From an uncultured Frankineae bacterium (lineage in GTDB: Bacteria; Actinomycetota; Actinomycetes; Mycobacteriales; SCTD01), in contig CADCUB010000001.1 of the NCBI GenBank assembly GCA_902805775.1, positions 30,234-94,233 of the forward strand: a DNA stretch of 64,000 nucleotides, in the 5' to 3' direction. Made by a program: the position numbers and the translations under genes. The notes beneath the pieces are model-generated. The model searched no databases. It had not been told where the DNA came from and saw nothing but the letters and a program-made list of their open reading frames with translations. How positions within the stretch are numbered: position 1 is the stretch's first letter; the number at the start of each line of letters is the position of its first letter. This document shows positions 52,704-62,633 of the stretch, one piece after another.

Positions 52704-54194
52704 TCAGCCGTCCTGCTCCTGCGCGCCGGGCACCGGGCTGCCGGTGTAGACGAAGATCCGGCCGCTGTCGTGACGCTGGTACAGCCGGCCGCCGGACGCC
52801 GCGATGTCCACCGTCGCGGGGTTGTCGTCCAGCTCCTGCCAGCCCGTCCCGGGAGTGCCGGTGGAGGAGTAGACGCGGCCGCTGCTGTGCCGCTGGTACA
52901 GCGCACCGCCGTCCGCGACGATCTGCACGGTCGCCGGGTTGTCGTCCAGCTGCTGCCACCGCGGCTGCGAGGCCTCGCGCCGGAAGCGCACGACGCGTGG
53001 CACCACCTCGTTGCGCGTCCCGCCGCCCTCGAGCGTGAAGCCGGCGGCGACCCACCCGCTCCCGTCGGGTGCGTCCCGTCGGCAGGTGAGGTAGTCGCCC
53101 CACTTCGGCTCGCCCGGAGCATGGGTGCCCGGGCTGGTCACGACGCTGGTCCACGCTCCGGCGGCGTCGTCGCGCACCCCCACCACGTGCCCCGGAGGTC
53201 GGTCCGCCCCACCGTGGAACGCGGTGAAGGCCAGCACGCCGTCGGCGTTGGCAGCGGCGGCGGGATAGGCCCAGGCACGGCTGTCGTGCCAGATGTCCGG
53301 CTCGTCGACGACCTGCTTGGACGCCTCGCCGATCCGCACGCAGCGGCAGTACGCGTGCGGGCGGCCCGGCTTGCTGCCTGCCGTCCACAGGAAGGTGATC
53401 GTGCCGTTGCCGACAGCGCCACCGGTGATGCGGGAGTCGGCCCTGCCGAGCCAGTCGACGCCGTTGGGCCCTGTCGAGGAGATGTCACCGCTCCAGGCGC
53501 CCACGGGCACGTCCCACCAGGACAGGCCGGTCGCCGCGTCCGGCCAGGCGAACAGCCGCAGCTGGTCCAGCCTGTTGTGGCTCGCCCAGTACATCGTGTG
53601 GGTCGCGCCCTGCGTCAGCCGCAGCGAGCCGTTGCTGGTGGTGGACCAGTGGGAGAACGACAGGTTGCCGCCGGCGGCGAGGGCGTCCAGGGGGAAGCGC
53701 ATGACCGACGCGCGCTTCCAGGCGTCGGAGGCGTCGAACATGTTGAAGGTGACCACCAGGTGCTGGTCGGTGAGGGCGGCGTCCGGGTAGTCGAACCACT
53801 GCCCGGCGAAGGCCGCGTCGAGATGGGTGGGCGCGATGTCCCACCAGCCCCAGCTCCCGCTCGCGAAGTCACCGTCGGAGGTCACCGCGATCCGGAAGAC
53901 GTTGGCGCCGTCCTGCGCGATGTACTGCAGGATCCAGATCCACAGCCCGCGCGCGTCGTCGTGCAGGGTGACCTGGTCGCAGCAGAACCCGCCCGCGGCG
54001 GCGGGCAGAGCGGTGAAGGGGTCCACGTGGGTCCACGACGCTCCCCCGTCCGTCGAGCGGCTGGCGTACCAGTTGCCGGTGACGAACAGCTGGTCGCCGG
54101 AGGATCCGAGGGACGGCTCGCCGACCGTCGAGGTCCTGCCGCCGGTCGCGGCGTCCTGCAGCCCGGCGTTGACGGCGAGGGTGATGGCGGACAT
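52704..54194 (-). CDS. BNR/Asp-box beta-propeller-like protein with two C-terminal 39-aa repeats
   Basis: 496 aa with no signal peptide. Asp-box SRSTDGGASW. The C-terminus has WQQLDDNPATVQIVADGGALYQRHSSGRVYSSTGTPGTG followed by WQELDDNPATVDIAASGGRLYQRHDSGRIFVYTGSPVPG (117-nt period, 52725-52958). Confidence 0.75.
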   Translation of the reverse strand: MSAITLAVNAGLQDAATGGRTSTVGEPSLGSSGDQLFVTGNWYASRSTDGGASWTHVDPFTALPAAAGGFCCDQVTLHDDARGLWIWILQYIAQDGANVFRIAVTSDGDFASGSWGWWDIAPTHLDAAFAGQWFDYPDAALTDQHLVVTFNMFDASDAWKRASVMRFPLDALAAGGNLSFSHWSTTSNGSLRLTQGATHTMYWASHNRLDQLRLFAWPDAATGLSWWDVPVGAWSGDISSTGPNGVDWLGRADSRITGGAVGNGTITFLWTAGSKPGRPHAYCRCVRIGEASKQVVDEPDIWHDSRAWAYPAAAANADGVLAFTAFHGGADRPPGHVVGVRDDAAGAWTSVVTSPGTHAPGEPKWGDYLTCRRDAPDGSGWVAAGFTLEGGGTRNEVVPRVVRFRREASQPRWQQLDDNPATVQIVADGGALYQRHSSGRVYSSTGTPGTGWQELDDNPATVDIAASGGRLYQRHDSGRIFVYTGSPVPGAQEQDG

Positions 54195-55564: not shown

Positions 55565-56572
55565 ATGACGGAGTCGCCGGCGAGTAGTCGCCCCCGTGAC
55601 GGCCTGTCGTCGCCCGGACTCGTGGACGTGAGGAAGCGGATGGCACCCTCGCTCGTGTACGTCCACGGCATCGGCAACAAGCTGCCGCGTGTCCCGTTGA
55701 CGCGCCTGTGGGACGCCGCCCTCTTCGGCGACGACTCCCGGTCCTCCTCGCGCATGGCCTACTGGGCGGACCTGCGCTACCCGCGGCCGTTGCCCGAGAG
55801 CGCGACGTCCGCACCGCCGTCCGACGGCGTCGTGTCGGTGCCCGAGAGCGCCGGCGGCGGCAGCGATCCGACGGCCCCGGAGGAGTTCGTCGAGGCAGTC
55901 CTGCGGGAGGCGGCGGGCTCGTCCGGGCGCCGGGCGCCGGAGTCGGCTGAGCCCGAGGCAGCCGCTGTCCCCCCTCCGGGCCTGGTCGCCTGGGGGCAGC
56001 GGATGACCTACGTCGCGGATGCGCTGGCTCGCGGCGCGGCGCCGGCCGCATCACAGCAGGAGGTCTTCCCGGGACCGAGGGCGGTCCGGCAGGCCGTGTT
56101 CCGCGCGCTGGTCGAGCGGGCCCTGAAGGACGTCCACGCCTACTTCTTCGGTGGGCAGCGGGAGCCGGTGCAGGACCGGCTGCGCGAGGTCCTGCAGGCG
56201 GTGGACGGGCCCGTGGTGCTCGTCGCCCACAGCCTCGGCTCCGTCGTGGCCTACGACGTGCTCCGGTCGTGGCAGGGCCCGGCACGGGAGGTCCCCCTGC
56301 TGGTCACCCTTGGCTCTCCACTGGGCACCGAGGAGATCCAGGACCTGCTGGTACGGCCGCTCCAGGTGCCCGACGGCACCGACCGCTGGCTCAACGCCTG
56401 CGACACCCGGGACGTCGTCGCCCTCGACCCGACGCTCCGGCGGGAGTTCCCGCCGGCGGAGCGGGTCTCGGACAGCATCGTCGACAACGACAGCGACAAC
56501 CACCACGGCATCGAGCCGTACCTGCGTGCAGCGGTGGTGCAGCAGGCCGTGCACGCCGCGCTGGCCGGCTGA
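55565..56572 (+). CDS. alpha/beta-hydrolase (lipase/esterase-like) protein, operon gene 1
   Basis: 335 aa. Beta-1 LVYVHGIGNK, nucleophile elbow VVLVAHSLGSVVAYDVL, then LVTLGSPLG, DTRDVVA and NHHGIEPY as candidate Asp/His. A low-complexity insert of about 110 aa follows the first strand. Alternative start at ATG 55640 (GAGGAAG upstream). Confidence 0.8.
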   Translation: MTESPASSRPRDGLSSPGLVDVRKRMAPSLVYVHGIGNKLPRVPLTRLWDAALFGDDSRSSSRMAYWADLRYPRPLPESATSAPPSDGVVSVPESAGGGSDPTAPEEFVEAVLREAAGSSGRRAPESAEPEAAAVPPPGLVAWGQRMTYVADALARGAAPAASQQEVFPGPRAVRQAVFRALVERALKDVHAYFFGGQREPVQDRLREVLQAVDGPVVLVAHSLGSVVAYDVLRSWQGPAREVPLLVTLGSPLGTEEIQDLLVRPLQVPDGTDRWLNACDTRDVVALDPTLRREFPPAERVSDSIVDNDSDNHHGIEPYLRAAVVQQAVHAALAG

Positions 56573-56604: not shown

Positions 56605-57537
56605 GTGCCCGACCGGACGGACCGCGACGACCCCCACGCCCCGGTGACCAACGTCGTCCGCACGCAGGACAGCACCGTGCAGACGCGGCTCGCCGTACCG
56701 CCGGTGCTGGGCTCGGCCCGCCCGGTCGACCCGACCGATGCAGGTGCGGAGGCGGTCGGGGACTCCGGCCTCCGGCTGGAGGCGGCGGTCGAGACCACCG
56801 CTCCCGACGTCCACCTGCCGGACATCGGCGCGGCGTCGTTCGGCGGCGCGGACGTCCAGCTGGAGACCGTCCACGGCAGCGACGACCGCAGGCAGGTGCA
56901 GGAGACGGCGCGCTACCCGTGGTCCGCGACCGCGTCGCTGCTCATCACGACCCGGGACGGGGCGCAGTGGATCGGCACGGGGTGGTTCGTCAGTCCGCGC
57001 ACGCTCGTGACCGCGGGGCACTGCGTGTACATCACCGGCAGCGGGGTCCCGGGACGCGACGGCTGGGTCCTGAGCATGCAGGTCCTGCCCGGCCGCAACG
57101 GCACGTCCCTGCCGTTCGGCGCCGTCACCGCCTCGCAGTTCTGGACCGTGCGCGGCTGGGTCGACGGCGGCGACGAGAACTACGACTACGGCGCCATCGT
57201 CCTGCCGTCCCCGCTGGGCGAGACCGTCGGCACCTACGGCTTCGCCGTCCTGCCCGACGACGAGCTGGCGGGACGGGTGCTCAACGTCGCCGGCTATCCG
57301 GGGGACCAGCCCCCCGGCACGCTGTGGTACGGGTCGCGGACGGTCGCGGCGCTGGGGCCGTCGAAGGTGCACTACGACATCGACACGGCCGGTGGCCAGA
57401 GCGGCGCGGCCGTCTACGTCATCGAGGACGGCAAGCGCCTGGGGGTGGCGGTGCACGCCTACGGCGGCCCGACCACCAACTCCGGGACCCGCATCTCGCC
57501 CGAGGTCTTCCGCAACCTCTCGGACTGGCAGGTGTGA
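56605..57537 (+). CDS. S1B (glutamyl-endopeptidase/V8-like) serine protease without signal peptide, operon gene 2
   Basis: GTG 56605 (GAGGAGG 5 nt upstream) within ORF 56269..57537. 310 aa. Catalytic triad contexts: TLVTAGHCV, NYDYGAIVL, DTAGGQSGAAV. The N-terminal region of about 95 aa is polar with no hydrophobic leader. Confidence 0.85.
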   Translation: MPDRTDRDDPHAPVTNVVRTQDSTVQTRLAVPPVLGSARPVDPTDAGAEAVGDSGLRLEAAVETTAPDVHLPDIGAASFGGADVQLETVHGSDDRRQVQETARYPWSATASLLITTRDGAQWIGTGWFVSPRTLVTAGHCVYITGSGVPGRDGWVLSMQVLPGRNGTSLPFGAVTASQFWTVRGWVDGGDENYDYGAIVLPSPLGETVGTYGFAVLPDDELAGRVLNVAGYPGDQPPGTLWYGSRTVAALGPSKVHYDIDTAGGQSGAAVYVIEDGKRLGVAVHAYGGPTTNSGTRISPEVFRNLSDWQV

Positions 57538-57595: not shown

Positions 57596-58657
57596 GTGCT
57601 GACCGACGACGAGCGCCACCTCGTCACCGCCGGCCTCCTGCGCGTCGTCGCGCTGGCCACCTCGCCACGGCAGACGCTCGTGGTGGCCCTGCACGAGACG
57701 CTGCAGGAGCGGCTCGGCGAGGGCGAGCCGCGCGTGCTCGTCGAGCGCGCTGTCGACCTGTGCCTGGAGGACGGCTACCGACAGGATCCTCCCGCCCTCG
57801 TGCACCTCCTGCAGACGCTCCTCGTCGCACTCGACCCCGAGGTTGAGCGGATCGCCAGCCGCCTGCGCGAGCCGCCGCCGGAGCTCGACGACCCCTTCGA
57901 CGCGGTCGTCCTCGTGAGCAAGCTGCCGTTCCTCGACCGGCAGTCGACGCGCGCCGCGCTGCGGCAGTTCCTGCAGCGGACGCCCCTGCAGCCGGTCGTC
58001 GTCGTCAACGGACCGGCACACGGCAAGACCTTCACCGGGGACTTCGTCGACCACGTCCTGTCCCCCTGGCCGAAGGTCCGGCACTGCCGCGTGCACCTCG
58101 AGGAGCGCCAGGGCGGGTCGACCGGCCCCGCCGAGCTCGCCTCGGACCTCGTCGCCACCATGGGCGGGAGTCCCGCGAGCGCTCCGCCCGCCAACACCAA
58201 CCTCGACCGCTGGGTCCAGGACCTCGTCAACTGGGCGCTGAGCGTGGCGAACGCGTCCGACTGCAGCTGGTGGTTCGTGCTTGACGGCTTCAACGCCGAG
58301 GAGCTGCGCCCCGACACCCAGCTGCTCATCGCCAAGCTGGCCAAGAGCCTGACCACCGGGGTGGCACGGGAGCGCCACCGTCTCGTCCTCACGGACTTCG
58401 ACCGGACCGTGCTGCCGCTGCAGCCGGGGCTCATCGCGGTGGAGACGACCGCCCCCATCCCCCGCGCCTCGGTGGCGACCGCGGTCGCCCAGGTGCTCTC
58501 GCGGGCGCCCGCGCCGGTGGACCCGGCGCCCGTCCTCGAGCGCGTGCTGCGGGACCTGGGCGATCCGGTCAGCGACCTGCGTGAGCTCGGCCTGCGGCTC
58601 ACCGACCTCATCGCGAGCGTCGGCGAGCCCCTGCCGGCCAGGCCCGGCCCGCCGTGA
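57596..58657 (+). CDS. N-terminal helical adaptor-like domain plus degenerate P-loop NTPase-like domain, operon gene 3
   Basis: GTG 57596 (GGGGAG upstream) within ORF 57392..58657. 353 aa. Walker-A-like VVVNGPAHGKTF has Asn in place of the first Gly. Walker-B-like WWFVLDGFN. The N-terminal 100 aa share the AVDLCLEDGY...LVHLLQ motif with genes 4 and 5. Confidence 0.78.
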   Translation: MLTDDERHLVTAGLLRVVALATSPRQTLVVALHETLQERLGEGEPRVLVERAVDLCLEDGYRQDPPALVHLLQTLLVALDPEVERIASRLREPPPELDDPFDAVVLVSKLPFLDRQSTRAALRQFLQRTPLQPVVVVNGPAHGKTFTGDFVDHVLSPWPKVRHCRVHLEERQGGSTGPAELASDLVATMGGSPASAPPANTNLDRWVQDLVNWALSVANASDCSWWFVLDGFNAEELRPDTQLLIAKLAKSLTTGVARERHRLVLTDFDRTVLPLQPGLIAVETTAPIPRASVATAVAQVLSRAPAPVDPAPVLERVLRDLGDPVSDLRELGLRLTDLIASVGEPLPARPGPP

Positions 58658-61536
58658 GCGAGCCGCCCACGACGACCGAGTCGCTGCTGCAGGCGCTGGA
58701 CGCGCGGATCGGCGCCCGGCAGGAGAGGGCCGCCGGCGCGCCGTCCCGCCGCACCTCCGTGAACCCCCTGCTGCAGGCGGCCGCGGTCCTGCACGTCTTC
58801 GACCCCACTGCGTTGCGGTCCGTGGGGACCGGTGGCTCCGCGTCGGACGCGGCCCTGGTCGAGGTGCTGCACGCGTCGGTGCCTGCGATCGGCTGGCGCG
58901 GCGCGGGGCTGCGCACCCTGCGGCTGCAGGTCCGCCGCACCGCCCTGCGCGAGCTGGGGTCGCGGACGGCCATGCGGGCGGCGCTCACGGCGAACCCGGA
59001 CCGGGTGCAGACCGAGCTGCAGCAGCAGTTCGAGCGGTGGCTGGGCGACGACGGGTTCGCGCTCGACCGCATGGCCTACGTCGAGCTGGAGGCGCTGCGC
59101 CAGCTCTACGACTGGGGTCTGGCGAGCTCCGACGGCGCCCTGCCGCCGGTCGAGCTCGTCGAGCGGGCGCGGGCCCGTCGCTCGACCGTCGCCGTCTTCG
59201 AGCACCTGGTCGACGAGGACTTCGTCGGCCGGGCGGAAGAGCTCGCGCTCCTCGAGGGACACGTGCGCTCGCCGGGCGGCGTGCCGCTGGTCATCTGGGG
59301 TCCGGGCGGCGCCGGCAAGACCGCCCTCGTGGGGCGCTTCCTCATCCGCTACGCCGAGGACCCGGAGGCCGGCTGGTTCCCCTTCGCCTACCTCCCCTTC
59401 GACTCCGAGACCCTGGACGTGCGTGAGCCGTTCACGCTGCTGCTCCCCGCCGCGACGCAGCTGGGCAACCAGGCGGGGGCCGCCCAGGGGCCGTCGGCGC
59501 CGACGGAGGCCGCGCGCCTCCGGGACGCGCTCCAGCGCTTCACCTCTGCCGTGGGCGACTACCGCGACCGTCGAGGGGCACTGCGCCGGCGGGCCAGCGA
59601 CGTCGAGCAGCGCGTCGCGCGGCTGGACAGCCTCTCGAGCGCCGACGTCGCGCTGTACGACGCGTTCGCCGACGTGCTCGAGACCGCCGCCGAGATCACG
59701 GTGCCGCCGTGGGACACGGTCCTGCTCGTGTTCGACACCTTCGAGGAGGTCGTCTACCGGGCAGCGGAGGACCTGCTCGGCTTCTGGTCGATGCTCGAGC
59801 ACCTGCAGCGCCGCCTGCCGCGCCTGCGTGTCGTCATCGCCGGCCGCGGCCGGCCCGACCCCGCCTCCACCGCGGCGATCCCCCTGCGCCAGGTCGTGCT
59901 CGGCGATCTGGACGAGGACGACGCCGTACGCCTGCTGGGCAAGCTGGGCGTCGACGACCCGGCCCTGGCACGTCGGGTGGCGCACCAGGTCGGAGGCAGC
60001 CCGATGTCGCTGCGGCTCGCGGCGAGCGTCGTGACCGCCGAGGGGGCCGGGGACCACGGCCTGCAGGGGCTGTCGGTGCACAAGATCGGACCCGAGCTCG
60101 TCCGCGGCCACCTCTACCGGCGGCTGCTCGACCACATCCACGACGAGGACGTCAGGGCGCTGGCGCATCCCGGCATGGTGCTGCGGCGGGTGACGCCGAC
60201 GATCATCGAGCGCGTCCTCGCGCCGGCGTGCGACCTGCCGGGCGTGTCGAGCGCTCGGGCGGTCGAGCTGTTCGAGGAGCTGCAACGGGAGCAGTCCCTG
60301 GTGAGCCTGGACAAGGACGGCTCGCTGCACTACCGGGAGGACGTCCGCCGCCCGGTGCTCCAGCTGCTGGCCCACGACGCGCCGGCCTCCGTCCGGCTGC
60401 TCCACGCCTACGCCGTGGAGCACTACCTGCACTCCGCAGCGCCCGCGCACCGGGCGGAGGAGCTGTACCACCGGATGATGCTCGCTCAGCCGCCGGAGCA
60501 GCTGGACGACCGCTGGCTGCCCGGCGTCGAGAGGTTCCTCGCCTCCGCCATCGAGGAGCTGCCCCTCGAGCAGCGCCGCTGGCTGGCCGGCAGGATGAGC
60601 ATCGAGCTGCCCGCGGAGGTCTACCGGCTGGCCCACCTCGGCGAGTGGGAGCGCCTGGTCGGACGCCGAGCGCTGCAGCTGCTGCGCTACGGGGGGCCGG
60701 CGGCCGTGCTGGACCTGCTGTCGGAACGGCCGGAACGGACACCGGGCAGCCCGTTGTCCGCCGTCGAGGCGCGGGTCCTGCTCGACCTGCAGCGGCCGCA
60801 GGACGCTGCTTCGCTGCTGGACGGGGCCCTCGCCGAGTTCCCCGCACTCGGCAATCCGGGACGCCTGGCCGAGCTGCTCTGGCTGCGCACGCAGGCGGCG
60901 GCGGTGCTCGGCGAGAGCTCGACGCGCCTCGCGCTCCTGCACCGGCTCGTCGACGTCACGGCCGGCATGCACTCGTCGCTGGCGCACGTCCAGGCCCTCA
61001 CCGAGCTGCTGGGGGCCCTGGACCCCGACAGCCGTCCCGACGCCGTGGGCGAGGCGGGGCGCGTCCGTCCGGCGCTCGCCCAGGCCCTGGGTCGGCTGAC
61101 GCAGGACGAGATCGCGACCGAGAGGTCACTGGTCCGCCTGGCGCTGGTCCGGCTCGGGCCGCACTACCCGTCGCTGGTGGCCCAGCTGGCGCCGCTCGTC
61201 CTGTTCGACCTGACCTACCTCGCCGACTCGGGCCTGGTCGACCTGCTCCCCGCCCTGCCCCGGGTCCGTGAGCTGCTCGCCGACCTGCTGCCGTCGGACG
61301 GCGCGCCCGCAGGCGACGGGCGCGCGACGGCCGGTGTCGTCGCCGAGCGCATCGTGTCGGCGCTCGCACGCAGGACGCGGGCGGAGGAGGGCGGAGCCCC
61401 GCTCGCGCGCCTCGCGGCGGGCGTCCTGCTCCTGCTGCGCGCGGAAGGGGCCTCCCTGTCGGGCTCCTCCCTCGCCGGGCTCGAGGACTACCGGGAGACC
61501 TGGGAGCTGGAGACGACACGAGAGGTGGCGGGCTGA
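58654..61536 (+). CDS. STAND-class P-loop NTPase (AAA_16/NB-ARC-like) with N-terminal adaptor-like region and C-terminal helical-repeat domain, operon gene 4
   Basis: 960 aa. GTG overlaps the gene 3 stop as GTGA. FVGRAEELALLEGHV...PLVIWGPGGAGKTALV is Walker A and VLLVFDTFEEV is Walker B. It continues with RVVIAGR, LGDLDEDDAVRLL, GGSPMSLRLAA, then about 450 aa of Leu/Ala-rich helical repeats. Confidence 0.88.
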   Translation: MSEPPTTTESLLQALDARIGARQERAAGAPSRRTSVNPLLQAAAVLHVFDPTALRSVGTGGSASDAALVEVLHASVPAIGWRGAGLRTLRLQVRRTALRELGSRTAMRAALTANPDRVQTELQQQFERWLGDDGFALDRMAYVELEALRQLYDWGLASSDGALPPVELVERARARRSTVAVFEHLVDEDFVGRAEELALLEGHVRSPGGVPLVIWGPGGAGKTALVGRFLIRYAEDPEAGWFPFAYLPFDSETLDVREPFTLLLPAATQLGNQAGAAQGPSAPTEAARLRDALQRFTSAVGDYRDRRGALRRRASDVEQRVARLDSLSSADVALYDAFADVLETAAEITVPPWDTVLLVFDTFEEVVYRAAEDLLGFWSMLEHLQRRLPRLRVVIAGRGRPDPASTAAIPLRQVVLGDLDEDDAVRLLGKLGVDDPALARRVAHQVGGSPMSLRLAASVVTAEGAGDHGLQGLSVHKIGPELVRGHLYRRLLDHIHDEDVRALAHPGMVLRRVTPTIIERVLAPACDLPGVSSARAVELFEELQREQSLVSLDKDGSLHYREDVRRPVLQLLAHDAPASVRLLHAYAVEHYLHSAAPAHRAEELYHRMMLAQPPEQLDDRWLPGVERFLASAIEELPLEQRRWLAGRMSIELPAEVYRLAHLGEWERLVGRRALQLLRYGGPAAVLDLLSERPERTPGSPLSAVEARVLLDLQRPQDAASLLDGALAEFPALGNPGRLAELLWLRTQAAAVLGESSTRLALLHRLVDVTAGMHSSLAHVQALTELLGALDPDSRPDAVGEAGRVRPALAQALGRLTQDEIATERSLVRLALVRLGPHYPSLVAQLAPLVLFDLTYLADSGLVDLLPALPRVRELLADLLPSDGAPAGDGRATAGVVAERIVSALARRTRAEEGGAPLARLAAGVLLLLRAEGASLSGSSLAGLEDYRETWELETTREVAG

Positions 61537-62633
61537 TGGCGACCGAGCAGCTCCCTGCGCAGCAGCTGGACGCCGTGCGCACCGCCCTGCTGGAGGTGCT
61601 GGGCTACGACGCCGCGACCCGGGGAGCGCTGCTCACGGGCCTGCCCGTGGCGGTGCGGGGACTGCTGCCCGGCGGGCAGGCCGCCCCTGCCATCGGGCTC
61701 GCGCTCGACCTCGGATTCCTGAACGGGATCGGCCGGCTGGCGGACGGCACCGTCCCGATCAAGGTCCTCCTCGAGCGCGCGGTCTCGCTCGCCGGGCCGA
61801 TCGAGGCGGCGGACGTCGTGCGCGACGCGCTGTCGGAGGTCGAGGCGCGGACGAGCGGGGCGCCGCCCGTGGTCGTCGCCGGACTGCCCGAGCTGAAGGA
61901 GGCGGTGGTCCTGCGCGACGACATGGTCCCGTTCGGCTTCCTGCACGGCGGCCTGGCCGCCGCGCGGGCGGTGGCCAAGCTGATGGTGACGCGGCACGAC
62001 GACGGCCGGCCCACGCTGGTCTCCGGCAAGCCCGTCGTCCACCTGGGCACCGGATGGCTCGTCGCTCCGGGTCTGCTCATGACCAACCACCACGTCGTCG
62101 CCGCACGGGCGCAGGGCGACGCTCCCCCGAGCGCGGCCGACCTGCGTGCGCAGGCCGTCGGCATGACGGTGCTGTTCGACTACGACGACGACGCCACCAC
62201 GGGCACCGCCGTCGAGGCGGTCGAGCTCGTGGCCGCCGACCCCGGTCTGGACTACGCGCTGGTGCGGCTGGCGGACGCGGGGCGCCCGCCGCTCACGCTG
62301 TCGACCGAGCCGGTCGCCGCCGTGAGCCCCGGCCAGGAGATCGCGATCAACGTCATCCAGCACCCCGACGGCCGGTCGAAGCGCTTCGCTCTCCGCAACA
62401 ACGTGCTCACGGCCGCCACGCCGACCGAGCTCCGCTACCTCACCGACACGCTGGGGGGCTCGTCCGGCTCGCCGCTGCTCGACGACACCTGGCAGGTGGT
62501 GGGACTGCACCGCGGCAGCACCTTCGTCAGCGGAGTGCAGTTCCAGGGCCGCAGGGTCGCGTGCGTCAACGTCGGCACCCCCATCACGGCGGTCCTCGCG
62601 CACGCCGGGCCCCACCTGCCGGGCCCCGTCTAG
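61536..62633 (+). CDS. N-terminal adaptor-like domain fused to trypsin-like (S1/DegP-like) serine protease, operon gene 5
   Basis: 365 aa. The ATG overlaps the gene 4 TGA by 1 nt. Triad contexts: LLMTNHHVV, GLDYALVRL, TLGGSSGSPLL. The N-terminal 110 aa are helical with ALDLGFLNGI...ADGTVPIKVLLERA. No signal peptide. Confidence 0.88.
   Translation: MATEQLPAQQLDAVRTALLEVLGYDAATRGALLTGLPVAVRGLLPGGQAAPAIGLALDLGFLNGIGRLADGTVPIKVLLERAVSLAGPIEAADVVRDALSEVEARTSGAPPVVVAGLPELKEAVVLRDDMVPFGFLHGGLAAARAVAKLMVTRHDDGRPTLVSGKPVVHLGTGWLVAPGLLMTNHHVVAARAQGDAPPSAADLRAQAVGMTVLFDYDDDATTGTAVEAVELVAADPGLDYALVRLADAGRPPLTLSTEPVAAVSPGQEIAINVIQHPDGRSKRFALRNNVLTAATPTELRYLTDTLGGSSGSPLLDDTWQVVGLHRGSTFVSGVQFQGRRVACVNVGTPITAVLAHAGPHLPGPV

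What the first reader, a model, noticed from the sequence alone, without database searches (positions are those of the whole stretch)
57749..61781. The same short adaptor-like motif sits N-terminal to three different proteins of the operon
**Seen in my alignment by eye:**
- Gene 3, residues 52-61 onward: AVDLCLEDGY..DPPALVHLLQTL.
- Gene 5, residues 56-82: ALDLGFLNGIGRLADGTVPIKVLLERA.
- Gene 4, residues 152-172, just before its NTPase domain: YDWGLASSDGALPPVELVERA.
- Shared core: D-[LW]-[GC]-[LF]-...-DG-x-[VL]-P-x-x-[VE]-L-[LV]-[EQ]-R/T-A.

**Interpretation:** Each motif lies in an all-helical-looking region of about 100 aa that precedes a different functional domain (P-loop, STAND, protease). 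Established comparative-genomic work describes Death-like 'effector-associated domains' that pair effectors with NTPase hubs through homotypic contacts. I infer that these three regions are such modules. The similarity is short and could be over-read.
Basis: partly seen in the sequence, partly recalled or inferred. Interest (0 to 1): 0.75.

Follow-up and report, generated by a model that had tools for sequence, protein, structure and literature searches.

The report
Adaptor domains linking protease to NTPases
Two of the three proteins (a small NTPase and a trypsin-like protease) carry related N-terminal six-helix adaptor domains of a known bacterial immune-type system, while the third "motif", in the large STAND NTPase, is a chance resemblance.

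Summary
All three peptide stretches are at the stated coordinates, but they are not one shared motif.

- **Gene 5:** residues 6-137 are a textbook Pfam EAD5 domain (E 6.5e-24) in front of a trypsin-like protease.
- **Gene 3:** residues 1-92 hit no Pfam EAD5 model. Profile-profile comparison links them to the operon-type EAD5 (82%, E 1e-5; column-shuffled controls never come near). AlphaFold2 gives both domains the same six-helix pattern.
- **Gene 4:** the motif is at chance level. Its residues are not conserved among orthologues. It lies in a constant N-terminal region and NTPase lead-in that stays the same in sister systems where gene 3 and the protease both carry EAD1 instead.

My reading is a STAND-based conflict system. 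The gene 3 and gene 5 adaptors would bring the protease to a gene 3/gene 4 NTPase complex.

The closest characterised relatives are the CARD-NLR systems (Lysobacter gasdermin system, Caulobacter LypABC) and the EAD principle of Kaur et al.

This is a new variant of a known kind and of moderate interest. No interaction has been tested.

The parts
55565..56572 (+). Gene 1, alpha/beta-hydrolase-like (lipase-type weak hits). Possible effector; membership of the system is uncertain.
   Evidence: Only sub-threshold Pfam hits: Abhydrolase_6, Ser_hydrolase, PGAP1, LCAT. No homologue was found next to the operon in the other loci.
56605..57537 (+). Gene 2, trypsin-like (V8-type) serine protease without an adaptor domain. 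About 85-100 aa of non-helical-looking N-terminal lead. Probable start GTG 56605, preceded by GGAGG.
   Evidence: Trypsin_2 and Trypsin hits. Conserved directly upstream of gene 3 in L001-L005, L009 and L010. Start codon and N-terminal comparison.
57596..58657 (+). Gene 3, a 353-aa small STAND-type P-loop NTPase with an N-terminal adaptor-like domain.
   Evidence: 22 homologues. Conserved Walker A GK[TS] and Walker B WW[FI]VLDGF. hhalign of g3 81-269 against the g4 NTPase 164-399 gives 95%, E 3e-8.
57596..57871 (+). Gene 3 residues 1-92 ('g3N'): six-helix adaptor-like domain, distantly related to EAD5 and more weakly to EAD1. Not recognised by the Pfam EAD5 model.
   Evidence: AF2 pLDDT 95-98, helices 4-18, 24-31, 34-37, 45-59, 67-75, 81-90. 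hhalign against operon-type EAD5 82%, E 1e-5; against the broad EAD5 profile 49%, E 1.8e-4. The window's own sequence has no Pfam EAD hit.
58654..61536 (+). Gene 4, a 960-aa STAND NTPase: constant N-terminal region, AAA_16 NTPase (residues 190-392) and a long C-terminal region. Its start overlaps the gene 3 stop (GTGA).
   Evidence: AAA_16 37.8 bits against a cut-off of 32.6. Orthologues in all loci. Overlap shown.
58654..59217 (+). Gene 4 N-terminal region (residues 1-188). Family-specific, matches no Pfam family, and is conserved whichever EAD the partners carry.
   Evidence: Alignment of 16 orthologues with invariant A42 A43 V45 F49 R94 L98 N114 P115 Q123 W154 P164. No Pfam family. hhalign against EAD5, g3N and EAD1 at chance level.
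61536..62633 (+). Gene 5, a 365-aa EAD5 + trypsin-like serine protease. The catalytic-type residues His186, Asp239 and the GSSGSP serine motif are invariant. Its start overlaps the gene 4 stop (TGATG).
   Evidence: EAD5 E 6.5e-24 (residues 6-137) and Trypsin_2 E 2.6e-22 (residues 171-324). Invariant residues. Overlap shown.
61551..61853 (+). EAD5 helical core (residues 6-106).
   Evidence: AF2 pLDDT 96-98 over residues 11-100, helices 8-21, 26-32, 38-41, 51-63, 74-86, 90-106. Family conservation: D58, R67, L68, D70, G71, P74, L79.

Best explanation
Genes 3, 4 and 5, with gene 2 and perhaps gene 1, form a STAND-NTPase conflict (immune or cell-death type) system built on the effector-associated-domain principle.

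**Shown**
- Gene 5 is an EAD5-trypsin-like protease.
- Gene 3 is a small paralogue of the gene 4 NTPase module. It carries an N-terminal six-helix domain with the same helix pattern as EAD5 and a distant but non-random profile similarity to it.
- Gene 4 has no EAD copy. Its 'motif' lies in a family-constant N-terminal region and NTPase lead-in.
- In sister systems the gene 3 homologue and the protease carry EAD1 together.
- In some organisms genes 3, 4 and 5 are fused into a single polypeptide.

**Inferred**
- The gene 3 N-domain and the gene 5 EAD5 are the cognate adaptor pair.
- Gene 4 senses a trigger through its C-terminal region and oligomerises.
- Gene 3 joins that assembly through its paralogous NTPase module.
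- Gene 3's adaptor recruits and concentrates the EAD5 protease.
- The protease then becomes active and cleaves a downstream effector. Candidates are the adaptor-less protease gene 2, the gene 1 hydrolase, or, in Sphingomonas, a trypsin-NucA nuclease fusion.

The logic resembles Apaf-1 CARD with caspase-9 CARD, and the bacterial CARD-NLR systems.
For: **Domain identities**
- EAD5 and Trypsin_2 on gene 5.
- g3N against operon-type EAD5: hhalign 82%, E 1e-5, score 35, against a permuted mean of 11.1 and max of 17.6.
- A g3N HMM gives 5 hits with E<0.01 and 14 with E<0.1 among 150 EAD5 proteins, where printed always in the same N-terminal register. Reversed and shuffled sets give none.
- AF2 models of both domains have pLDDT about 90 and six helical elements in the same order and spacing.
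- Positive control: EAD1 of the g3-like proteins against EAD1 of the proteases gives 98.4%, E 6e-15.

**Pairing across loci**
- g3N-type with EAD5 in 8 distinct loci, EAD1 with EAD1 in 7, and no mixed locus.
- The gene 4 N-terminus is conserved across both types.

**Links between the components**
- The g3 NTPase is a paralogue of the g4 NTPase.
- Single ORFs P0065 and P0074 hold g3-like + g4-like + EAD5 + Trypsin_2. P0114 and P0154 hold g4-like + EAD5 + Trypsin_2.
- EAD5 sits directly N-terminal to other STAND NTPases elsewhere.
- Overlapping stop and start codons join g3/g4 and g4/g5.
- Every well-covered locus holds at least one extra adaptor-less trypsin-like protease. In L006 it is fused to Endonuclease_NS.

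**Precedents**
- EAD principle: Kaur et al. 2020, PMC7159879.
- CARD on a trypsin-like protease, plus a STAND ATPase and a second protease: Wein et al. 2023, PMC10312443.
- LypABC: Banks et al. 2026, PMC13236601.
Against: - Pfam's EAD5 model does not detect the gene 3 domain in any orthologue.
- With a broad 165-sequence EAD5 profile the hhalign probability drops to 49%, E 1.8e-4. Only the first 42-55 residues align with confidence.
- g3N also resembles EAD1 weakly (E 5.5e-4; 1 of 18 sequences hits Pfam EAD1 at 0.001). It may therefore be a separate EAD family rather than a divergent EAD5.
- The two adaptor types follow two clades of the system, so the co-variation may reflect a single swap event.
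- The two AF2 models could not be superposed because no coordinates are returned. Foldseek found no significant PDB match.
- In the one experimentally dissected relative, the protease CARD binds the N-terminal domain of the NLR-like protein, not a second CARD.
- No interaction, protease substrate or trigger was tested.
Confidence: 0.55

Rival explanations
1. CARD-NLR-like heterotypic docking. The EAD5 of the protease and/or the gene 3 N-domain binds the constant N-terminal region of gene 4, as the LypA CARD binds the LypB N-terminal domain. On this reading the g3N/EAD5 similarity reflects common descent, not mutual binding.
For: [quoted passage not shown]
- Gene 4 has the same layout as LypB: an N-terminal region of about 190 aa, an ATPase at 190-392 and a long C-terminal region.
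- The gene 4 N-terminal region is strongly conserved, so it has some essential role.
- In P0114 and P0154, EAD5-trypsin is fused to a g4-like protein within the same ORF, with no g3-like part in that ORF.
Against: - The same gene 4 N-terminal region is found with EAD1 partners and with EAD5/g3N partners. A specific docking surface for both is less parsimonious than EAD-EAD pairing.
- In every locus the g3-like protein and the protease carry matching adaptor types.
- Homology of gene 4 to LypB could not be tested because no sequence was available.
Confidence: 0.25
2. One reading: one and the same short adaptor motif, a homotypic Death-like module, sits in all three proteins including gene 4.
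For: - By eye, g4 DGALPPVELVERA resembles g5 DGTVPIKVLLERA, with 7/14 identities.
- All three regions precede a catalytic or NTPase domain.
Against: - BLASTP E 0.66 for that single pairwise comparison.
- hhalign of the g4 N-terminus, or of full-length g4, against EAD5, g3N or EAD1 gives probabilities of at most 2.6%. For g4N against EAD5 the score lies within the permutation range.
- The motif residues are not conserved in gene 4 orthologues and do not match the EAD5 family consensus.
- g4 164-190 aligns with g3 81-115, the lead-in to the NTPase, and not with g3 52-75.
- The gene 4 N-terminus does not change when the partners swap EAD type.
Confidence: 0.04
3. The gene 3 N-domain is unrelated to EAD5 and is not an adaptor. 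On this reading the similarity comes from helical, Ala/Leu/Arg-rich composition, and the domain acts as, for example, an autoinhibitory or sensor module of the small NTPase.
For: - No Pfam EAD5 hit.
- Only 24% identity over 55 residues.
- Probability 49% with the broad profile.
- Column permutation is a lenient null for helical proteins.
Against: - Reversed and shuffled controls give no hits, while real EAD5 proteins give 14, where printed in one register.
- Other helical domains of the same operons score much lower against g3N: g4N 11.9 and the protease EAD1 16.5, against 35.0 for EAD5.
- The helix patterns are the same in two independent AF2 models.
- The homologous position in sister proteins is occupied by a bona fide EAD1 that matches the protease's EAD1.
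Confidence: 0.1

Closest known systems
Effector-associated domains (EAD1-EAD12) and the 'EAD principle' (Kaur, Burroughs, Iyer, Aravind; eLife 2020 PMC7159879 and eLife 2021 PMC8195603)
   Same: - Small non-catalytic terminal domains.
- One copy sits on a core NTPase-type component and one on an effector encoded by the adjacent gene.
- EAD5 is listed among the EADs that recruit effectors, and trypsin-like peptidases are among the effectors described.
- Gene 5 is a Pfam EAD5 member.
   Different: - No MoxR, vWA, VMAP, iSTAND or GAP1 core was found in genes 1-5.
- Here the core is a pair of active-looking STAND-type NTPases.
- The copy on the core component (gene 3) is too divergent for the EAD5 model.
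- The EAD5 core is predicted all-helical, whereas the 2020 paper predicted mixed alpha+beta.
CARD-NLR anti-phage systems: Lysobacter enzymogenes gasdermin system (Wein et al., PMC10312443) and Caulobacter LypABC (Banks et al. 2026, PMC13236601)
   Same: - A trypsin-like protease with an N-terminal helical bundle of about 80-100 aa.
- A STAND ATPase with an N-terminal region of about 190 aa, an ATPase at about 190-390 and C-terminal repeats.
- A second, adaptor-less trypsin-like protease.
- Effectors that vary between loci: nuclease, phospholipase or gasdermin there; in L006 a trypsin + Endonuclease_NS fusion like LypC.
   Different: - In LypA the protease and a divergent ATPase are one polypeptide with one CARD. 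Here they are two proteins (genes 5 and 3), each with its own adaptor domain.
- No gasdermin or nuclease was found in genes 1-5.
- Sequence homology to LypA, LypB or the Lysobacter proteins could not be tested.
- PADLOC 2.0 models give no hit to genes 3 and 4.
- Foldseek similarity to CARD and death domains is not significant.
Two-gene nSTAND2 system and the NucA-trypsin system (Kaur et al. 2021 and 2020)
   Same: - Two adjacent genes each encode a STAND NTPase module, predicted there to form hetero-multimers.
- Operons with several trypsin paralogues, a NucA nuclease, sometimes EAD1 and a STAND NTPase, mostly in alphaproteobacteria.
   Different: - Genes 3 and 4 give only weak, sub-threshold hits to Pfam nSTAND models.
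- Neither description mentions a small EAD-bearing NTPase placed between the protease and the large STAND.
Apoptosome (Apaf-1 CARD with caspase-9 CARD)
   Same: Working logic only: a STAND NTPase oligomer recruits a protease through small helical adaptor domains, and the protease is activated by proximity (established knowledge).
   Different: - The protease is trypsin-like, not a caspase.
- The adaptor on the NTPase side sits on a separate small paralogue.
- No significant structural match to CARD.

Membership tests
Pfam EAD5 (PF19957) | Match to the family HMM above the gathering score (27 bits) | tested here: met
   Gene 5 residues 6-137: 84.7 bits, E 6.5e-24. The isolated N-terminus gives 87.8 bits. 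This applies to gene 5 only.
Pfam EAD5 (PF19957), gene 3 N-domain | Match to the family HMM | tested here: not met
   No hit at E<=10 for the window sequence. None of 18 orthologues hit at E<=10. EAD5 was not listed among the families hit by 28 g3-like proteins (only the top 25 of 47 were shown).
Pfam EAD5 (PF19957), gene 3 N-domain | Remote homology by profile-profile comparison, and the same fold | tested here: inconclusive
   hhalign 82%, E 1e-5 against operon-type EAD5, but 49%, E 1.8e-4 against the broad profile, and only for the first 42-55 residues. The helix patterns are the same in AF2. No superposition was possible.
Pfam EAD5 / any EAD, gene 4 N-terminal region | HMM or profile similarity to an EAD | tested here: not met
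   No Pfam family in 16 orthologues. hhalign against EAD5, g3N and EAD1 gives probabilities of at most 2.6%. For g4N against EAD5 the score lies within the permutation range.
EAD principle (Kaur et al. 2020) | The same EAD on a core component and on an effector encoded in the same operon, at a protein terminus | tested here: met
   Clear in sister loci, where EAD1 is on both the g3-like protein and the protease. In the window the pair is EAD5 plus a divergent relative. Both are N-terminal.
MoxR-vWA ternary systems (VMAP / iSTAND) | MoxR AAA+ and vWA proteins in the operon | tested here: not met
   No MoxR, vWA, VMAP or iSTAND hits among genes 1-5. Genes further away were not scanned.
Death-like superfamily (CARD/DD/PYD) | Six-helix bundle with a significant structural match to known members | tested here: inconclusive
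   Both AF2 models have six helical elements. Foldseek against PDB gives a best E of 0.36 (g3N) and 1.1 (g5N). CARD and death domains make up about 18 of the 50 weak hits for g3N, with TM 0.41-0.52 normalised to the target. The FADD death domain appears in both lists.
STAND NTPase | P-loop NTPase of the AAA_16/NACHT type with Walker A and B, preceded by an F.GR-type lead-in, and C-terminal repeats in the sensor protein | tested here: met
   Gene 4: AAA_16 37.8 bits against a cut-off of 32.6. Gene 3: hhalign 95% to the gene 4 module, with conserved GK[TS] and hhhhD. C-terminal repeats of gene 4 were not confirmed: no Pfam hit and only a weak TPR_2 hit in the fusion P0065.
CARD-NLR defence system (DefenseFinder; Wein et al., Banks et al.) | Operon with an adaptor-bearing trypsin-like protease, an NLR-like STAND ATPase with an N-terminal domain, and a second protease or effector | tested here: met
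   Architecture only: genes 5, 4 and 2. L006 adds trypsin + Endonuclease_NS. Compare.
CARD-NLR defence system (DefenseFinder; Wein et al., Banks et al.) | Sequence or HMM membership (DefenseFinder CARD_NLR models; homology to LypA/LypB or the Lysobacter proteins) | not testable with these tools
   No sequences or models of these proteins were available. PADLOC 2.0 gives no hit for genes 3 and 4. The PDB sequence search found nothing.
CARD-NLR defence system | Adaptor-mediated physical contact needed for function | not testable with these tools

The most novel reading that the evidence does not exclude
The gene 3 N-domain would define an unrecognised member of the EAD/Death-like adaptor radiation that bridges EAD1 and EAD5. 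It resembles both, while they do not detectably resemble each other.

The operon would then be a 'split' CARD-NLR system. In LypA-type proteins the protease and the accessory ATPase are covalently joined. Here they are separate proteins held together by a cognate adaptor pair. That pair has been exchanged as a unit (EAD1/EAD1 against g3N/EAD5) between sister lineages, and in other lineages it was made redundant by fusion into single polypeptides of about 1,700-1,800 aa.
Probability: 0.35. Interest if true: 0.55.

Novelty: new variant of a known kind. Interest (0 to 1): 0.4.

Why it matters
Adaptor domains that join sensors to proteases are the central wiring of apoptosomes and inflammasomes, and, as found recently, of bacterial CARD-NLR defence.

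This operon family offers a natural experiment on that wiring:
- The same NTPase core appears with two different matched adaptor pairs.
- It also appears as single-chain fusions.
- It includes an extra small NTPase that carries the adaptor.

If the pairing holds, the family gives a compact system for testing adaptor specificity and proximity activation of a trypsin-like protease. It also shows that current domain libraries miss the partner copy of EAD5.

Practically, the result corrects the original claim: two related adaptors, not three.

Tried and rejected
- **Pairwise BLASTP** between the three proteins: nothing significant.
- **Pfam, NCBIfam and PADLOC** on genes 3 and 4 and on their N-terminal pieces: no informative family beyond AAA_16.
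- **Word-indexed protein search with the gene 5 N-terminus:** no hits. With the gene 4 N-terminus: only 2 fragments. Homologues were collected from loci and from the exhaustive search instead.
- **Structure prediction of gene 5 with an alignment of locus-derived sequences:** Redone with hits of the exhaustive search.
- **Foldseek of both domain models against PDB, and of EAD5 against viral structures:** no significant match, and no phage 'EAD-only' decoy found.
- **PDB sequence searches with both domain profiles, with gene 4 and with the gene 3 family:** nothing useful.
- **An apparent 'g3N + EAD5 tandem' in P0093, P0094 and P0124:** this turned out to be EAD1 + EAD5. My full-length gene 3 profile included EAD1-type members, so it was rejected as evidence about g3N.
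- **An EAD copy elsewhere in gene 4,** including its C-terminus: none.
- **Further EAD5, g3N or EAD1 copies in the other 60 kb of the window:** none.
- **LypA/LypB sequences from the paper's supplements,** to test homology: not present.
Full report
**Genes.** The region holds five co-directional genes on the + strand in DNA of about 74% G+C.
- Gene 1: 55565-56572.
- Gene 2: ORF from 56269, probable start GTG 56605 after GGAGG, to 57537.
- Gene 3: GTG 57596-58657, 353 aa.
- Gene 4: 58654-61536, 960 aa.
- Gene 5: 61536-62633, 365 aa.

The gene 3 stop and gene 4 start overlap (GTGA). The gene 4 stop and gene 5 start overlap (TGATG).

**First pass.**
- Pfam calls gene 5 as EAD5 (residues 6-137, E 6.5e-24) plus Trypsin_2 (171-324).
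- Gene 4 is AAA_16 at 190-392.
- Gene 2 is trypsin-like.
- Gene 1 is weakly alpha/beta-hydrolase.
- Gene 3 gets nothing.
- The isolated N-termini of genes 3 and 4 hit no EAD even at E<=10.
- NCBIfam and PADLOC add nothing for genes 3 and 4.
- Pairwise BLASTP between the three proteins is not significant. The best trace is g4 159-172 against g5 69-82, E 0.66.

So one part of the interpretation, that gene 5 carries an effector-associated domain, is simply correct. It is also already catalogued. The rest needed profiles.

**Relatives.**
- Gene 3 has 22 homologues in the large protein collection. The most distant carry Pfam EAD1 in front of the same P-loop domain.
- Scans of genomes and metagenomes gave 28 loci.
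- The order g2-g3-g4-g5 recurs in Paractinoplanes, an Actinomycetota MAG, Devosia and a metagenome contig. Sphingomonas has g3-g4-g5 without an upstream g2.
- A second group of loci, including one from a Candidatus Acidiferrum MAG, has the order protease, g3-like, g4-like.
- In that second group, similarity to gene 3 starts only at residue ~95 and to gene 5 only at ~170. Similarity to gene 4 starts at residue 33-41.
- Pfam shows why. Seven of the 14 proteases carry EAD5 and the other seven carry EAD1. Thirteen of the 28 g3-like proteins carry EAD1.
- Locus by locus, the g3N-type goes with EAD5 in 8 distinct loci and EAD1 goes with EAD1 in 7. No locus is mixed.
- The gene 4 N-terminal region is conserved throughout.

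The N-domains of gene 3 and the protease therefore change together, and that of gene 4 does not. One caution: the two types correspond to two clades, so this may be a single swap event.

**Is the gene 3 N-domain related to EAD5?**
- hhalign of 25 g3 N-termini (residues 1-92) against the 7 operon-type EAD5 domains gives Prob 82%, E 1e-5, score 35, aligning g3 2-56 with g5 6-60.
- Column permutation gives 11.1 +/- 1.9, max 17.6, with 0 of 120 reaching the observed score.
- The positive control, the EAD1 pair, gives 98.4%, E 6e-15.
- Other helical domains of the same operons score 11.9-16.5 against g3N. EAD1 of the g3-like proteins scores 23.9, E 5.5e-4.
- An exhaustive phmmer search with the gene 5 EAD5 found 188 relatives. 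Against a 165-sequence profile built from them, the g3N match weakens to 49%, E 1.8e-4, over residues 2-43.
- A g3N HMM gives 5 hits below E 0.01 and 14 below 0.1 among 150 EAD5 proteins, where printed always in the same register. Reversed and shuffled copies give none.
- AlphaFold2 models of both domains are confident (pLDDT about 90).
  - g3: helices 4-18, 24-31, 34-37, 45-59, 67-75, 81-90.
  - g5: helices 8-21, 26-32, 38-41, 51-63, 74-86, 90-106.
  - The six elements come in the same order and spacing.

The register agrees with hhalign, but that part of the alignment has low posterior confidence.

I conclude that g3N is a distant relative of EAD5, or a sister EAD family that also touches EAD1 (one of 18 sequences hits Pfam EAD1 at 0.001). 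I also conclude that the short motif is not what establishes this.

**Gene 4.**
- Its N-terminal alignment scores at chance against EAD5, g3N and EAD1.
- No part of the full-length protein matches any of them.
- Sixteen orthologues hit no Pfam family.
- hhalign of the gene 3 family against the gene 4 family aligns g3 81-269 with g4 164-399 (95%, E 3e-8).

So g4 'PPVELVERARARR...FVGR' corresponds to g3 'PEVERIASRLRE...PFLDR', the lead-in to the shared STAND-type NTPase module. It does not correspond to the gene 3 adaptor. The three-way motif is therefore not supported.

**Further context.**
- Among the EAD5 relatives are single ORFs combining g3-like + g4-like + EAD5 + Trypsin_2 (P0065, 1832 aa; P0074, 1718 aa) and g4-like + EAD5 + Trypsin_2 (P0114, P0154). 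These are Rosetta-stone support that the three products work together.
- The N-termini of the triple fusions resemble both g3N and EAD5, but only faintly.
- EAD5 also sits directly in front of NB-ARC or AAA_16 + TPR STAND NTPases, TIR, a dynamin-like GTPase and an FGE-sulfatase-type domain. In those proteins the Pfam match stops at model position ~100-110. The domain proper is thus the ~100-aa helical bundle seen in the model.
- Another EAD5-trypsin gene, on a repABC plasmid, is followed by a protein whose N-terminus is a divergent EAD5 that the precomputed Pfam annotation also missed. Divergent partner copies therefore seem usual.
- Each well-covered locus has at least one extra adaptor-less trypsin-like protease. 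In Sphingomonas it is fused to Endonuclease_NS.

**Comparison with what is known.**
- The EAD concept, EAD5 and its role in recruiting effectors were described by Kaur et al. (PMC7159879; PMC8195603).
- The closest experimentally studied systems are the CARD-NLR systems.
  - In Lysobacter, a CARD-like domain on the second of two trypsin-like proteases is needed for defence together with a STAND ATPase (PMC10312443).
  - In Caulobacter, LypA is CARD-trypsin-divergent ATPase. LypB is an N-terminal domain (1-192), ATPase (193-392) and TPR. LypC is trypsin-endonuclease.
  - Two-hybrid assays show that the LypA CARD binds the LypB N-terminal domain (PMC13236601).
- The present operon has the same parts in a different arrangement. 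The protease and the small ATPase are separate proteins, each with its own adaptor.
- I could not obtain Lyp or Lysobacter sequences, so homology is untested.
- Foldseek gives no significant PDB match for either domain model. CARD and death domains are only enriched among the weak hits.

**Mechanism (inferred).** Gene 4 senses and oligomerises. Gene 3 joins through the paralogous NTPase module. The g3N-EAD5 pair tethers the protease. Proximity activates it, and it processes a downstream protease or effector (gene 2; possibly gene 1; the nuclease fusion in Sphingomonas).

The main rival is CARD-NLR-like docking of an adaptor on the gene 4 N-terminal region.

**Verdict.**
- The system is a new variant of a known kind.
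- Interest is moderate.

Noticed in passing
P0065 (1832 aa) and P0074 (1718 aa): Single ORFs that combine a g3-like NTPase, a g4-like STAND, EAD5 and Trypsin_2. P0114 and P0154 combine g4-like + EAD5 + Trypsin_2. These are natural fusions of the operon's products.
   Followed up: partly
P0093 (208 aa), P0094 (241 aa), P0124 (970 aa), P0041 (1170 aa): Small proteins made only of EAD1 + EAD5 in tandem, in either order. There is also a g4-like STAND ending in EAD1 + EAD5, and a protein with four EAD5 copies. These could be bridging adaptors between EAD1 and EAD5 networks, or decoys.
   Followed up: partly
window 61551-61946 (gene 5 residues 6-137): The AF2 model shows the EAD5 core as all-helical up to residue ~106 and mostly non-helical (coil) after that. 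In non-trypsin fusions the Pfam EAD5 match ends at model position ~100-110. The last ~30 model positions therefore look like a trypsin-specific linker. The 'mixed alpha+beta' prediction in the 2020 paper is not borne out.
   Followed up: partly
window 58004-58030 (gene 3 Walker A): The window's gene 3 and its closest relative P0002 have a one-residue deletion in the P-loop (NGPA-HGKT against G....GK[TS] in the other homologues). Walker B has a single acidic residue (LDGF). The small NTPase may bind nucleotide rather than hydrolyse it.
   Followed up: no
L006 10620-12674 (Sphingomonas lacusdianchii): Directly after the gene 5 orthologue lies a 684-aa Trypsin_2 + Endonuclease_NS protein, the architecture of Caulobacter LypC. 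On the opposite strand there are a 673-aa protein with a C-terminal trypsin domain and a 932-aa Amidase_2 protein.
   Followed up: partly
L030 7001-9281 and L031 (repABC-type plasmid records CP072169.1, CP039694.1): An EAD5-trypsin gene lies next to the plasmid replication genes. It is followed by a 383-aa protein with a divergent EAD5-like N-terminus and an unassigned C-terminal domain.
   Followed up: partly
L007 2010-11345: One EAD1-trypsin protease is flanked by two separate g3-like/g4-like pairs. One protease may serve two sensor pairs.
   Followed up: no
window 52704-54194, minus strand: A 496-aa ORF ends in two tandem copies of a ~38-aa unit (W.ELDDNPATV.I...GG.LYQRH.SGR...). Seen by eye in the ORF list and not analysed.
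   Followed up: no
window 55565-56572 (gene 1): The alpha/beta-hydrolase-like gene directly upstream has weak lipase-type hits (PGAP1, LCAT). No homologue was detected in the related loci (tblastn, E<=1e-3). It could be a lineage-specific effector, since phospholipase effectors replace gasdermin in some CARD-NLR operons, or it could be unrelated.
   Followed up: no
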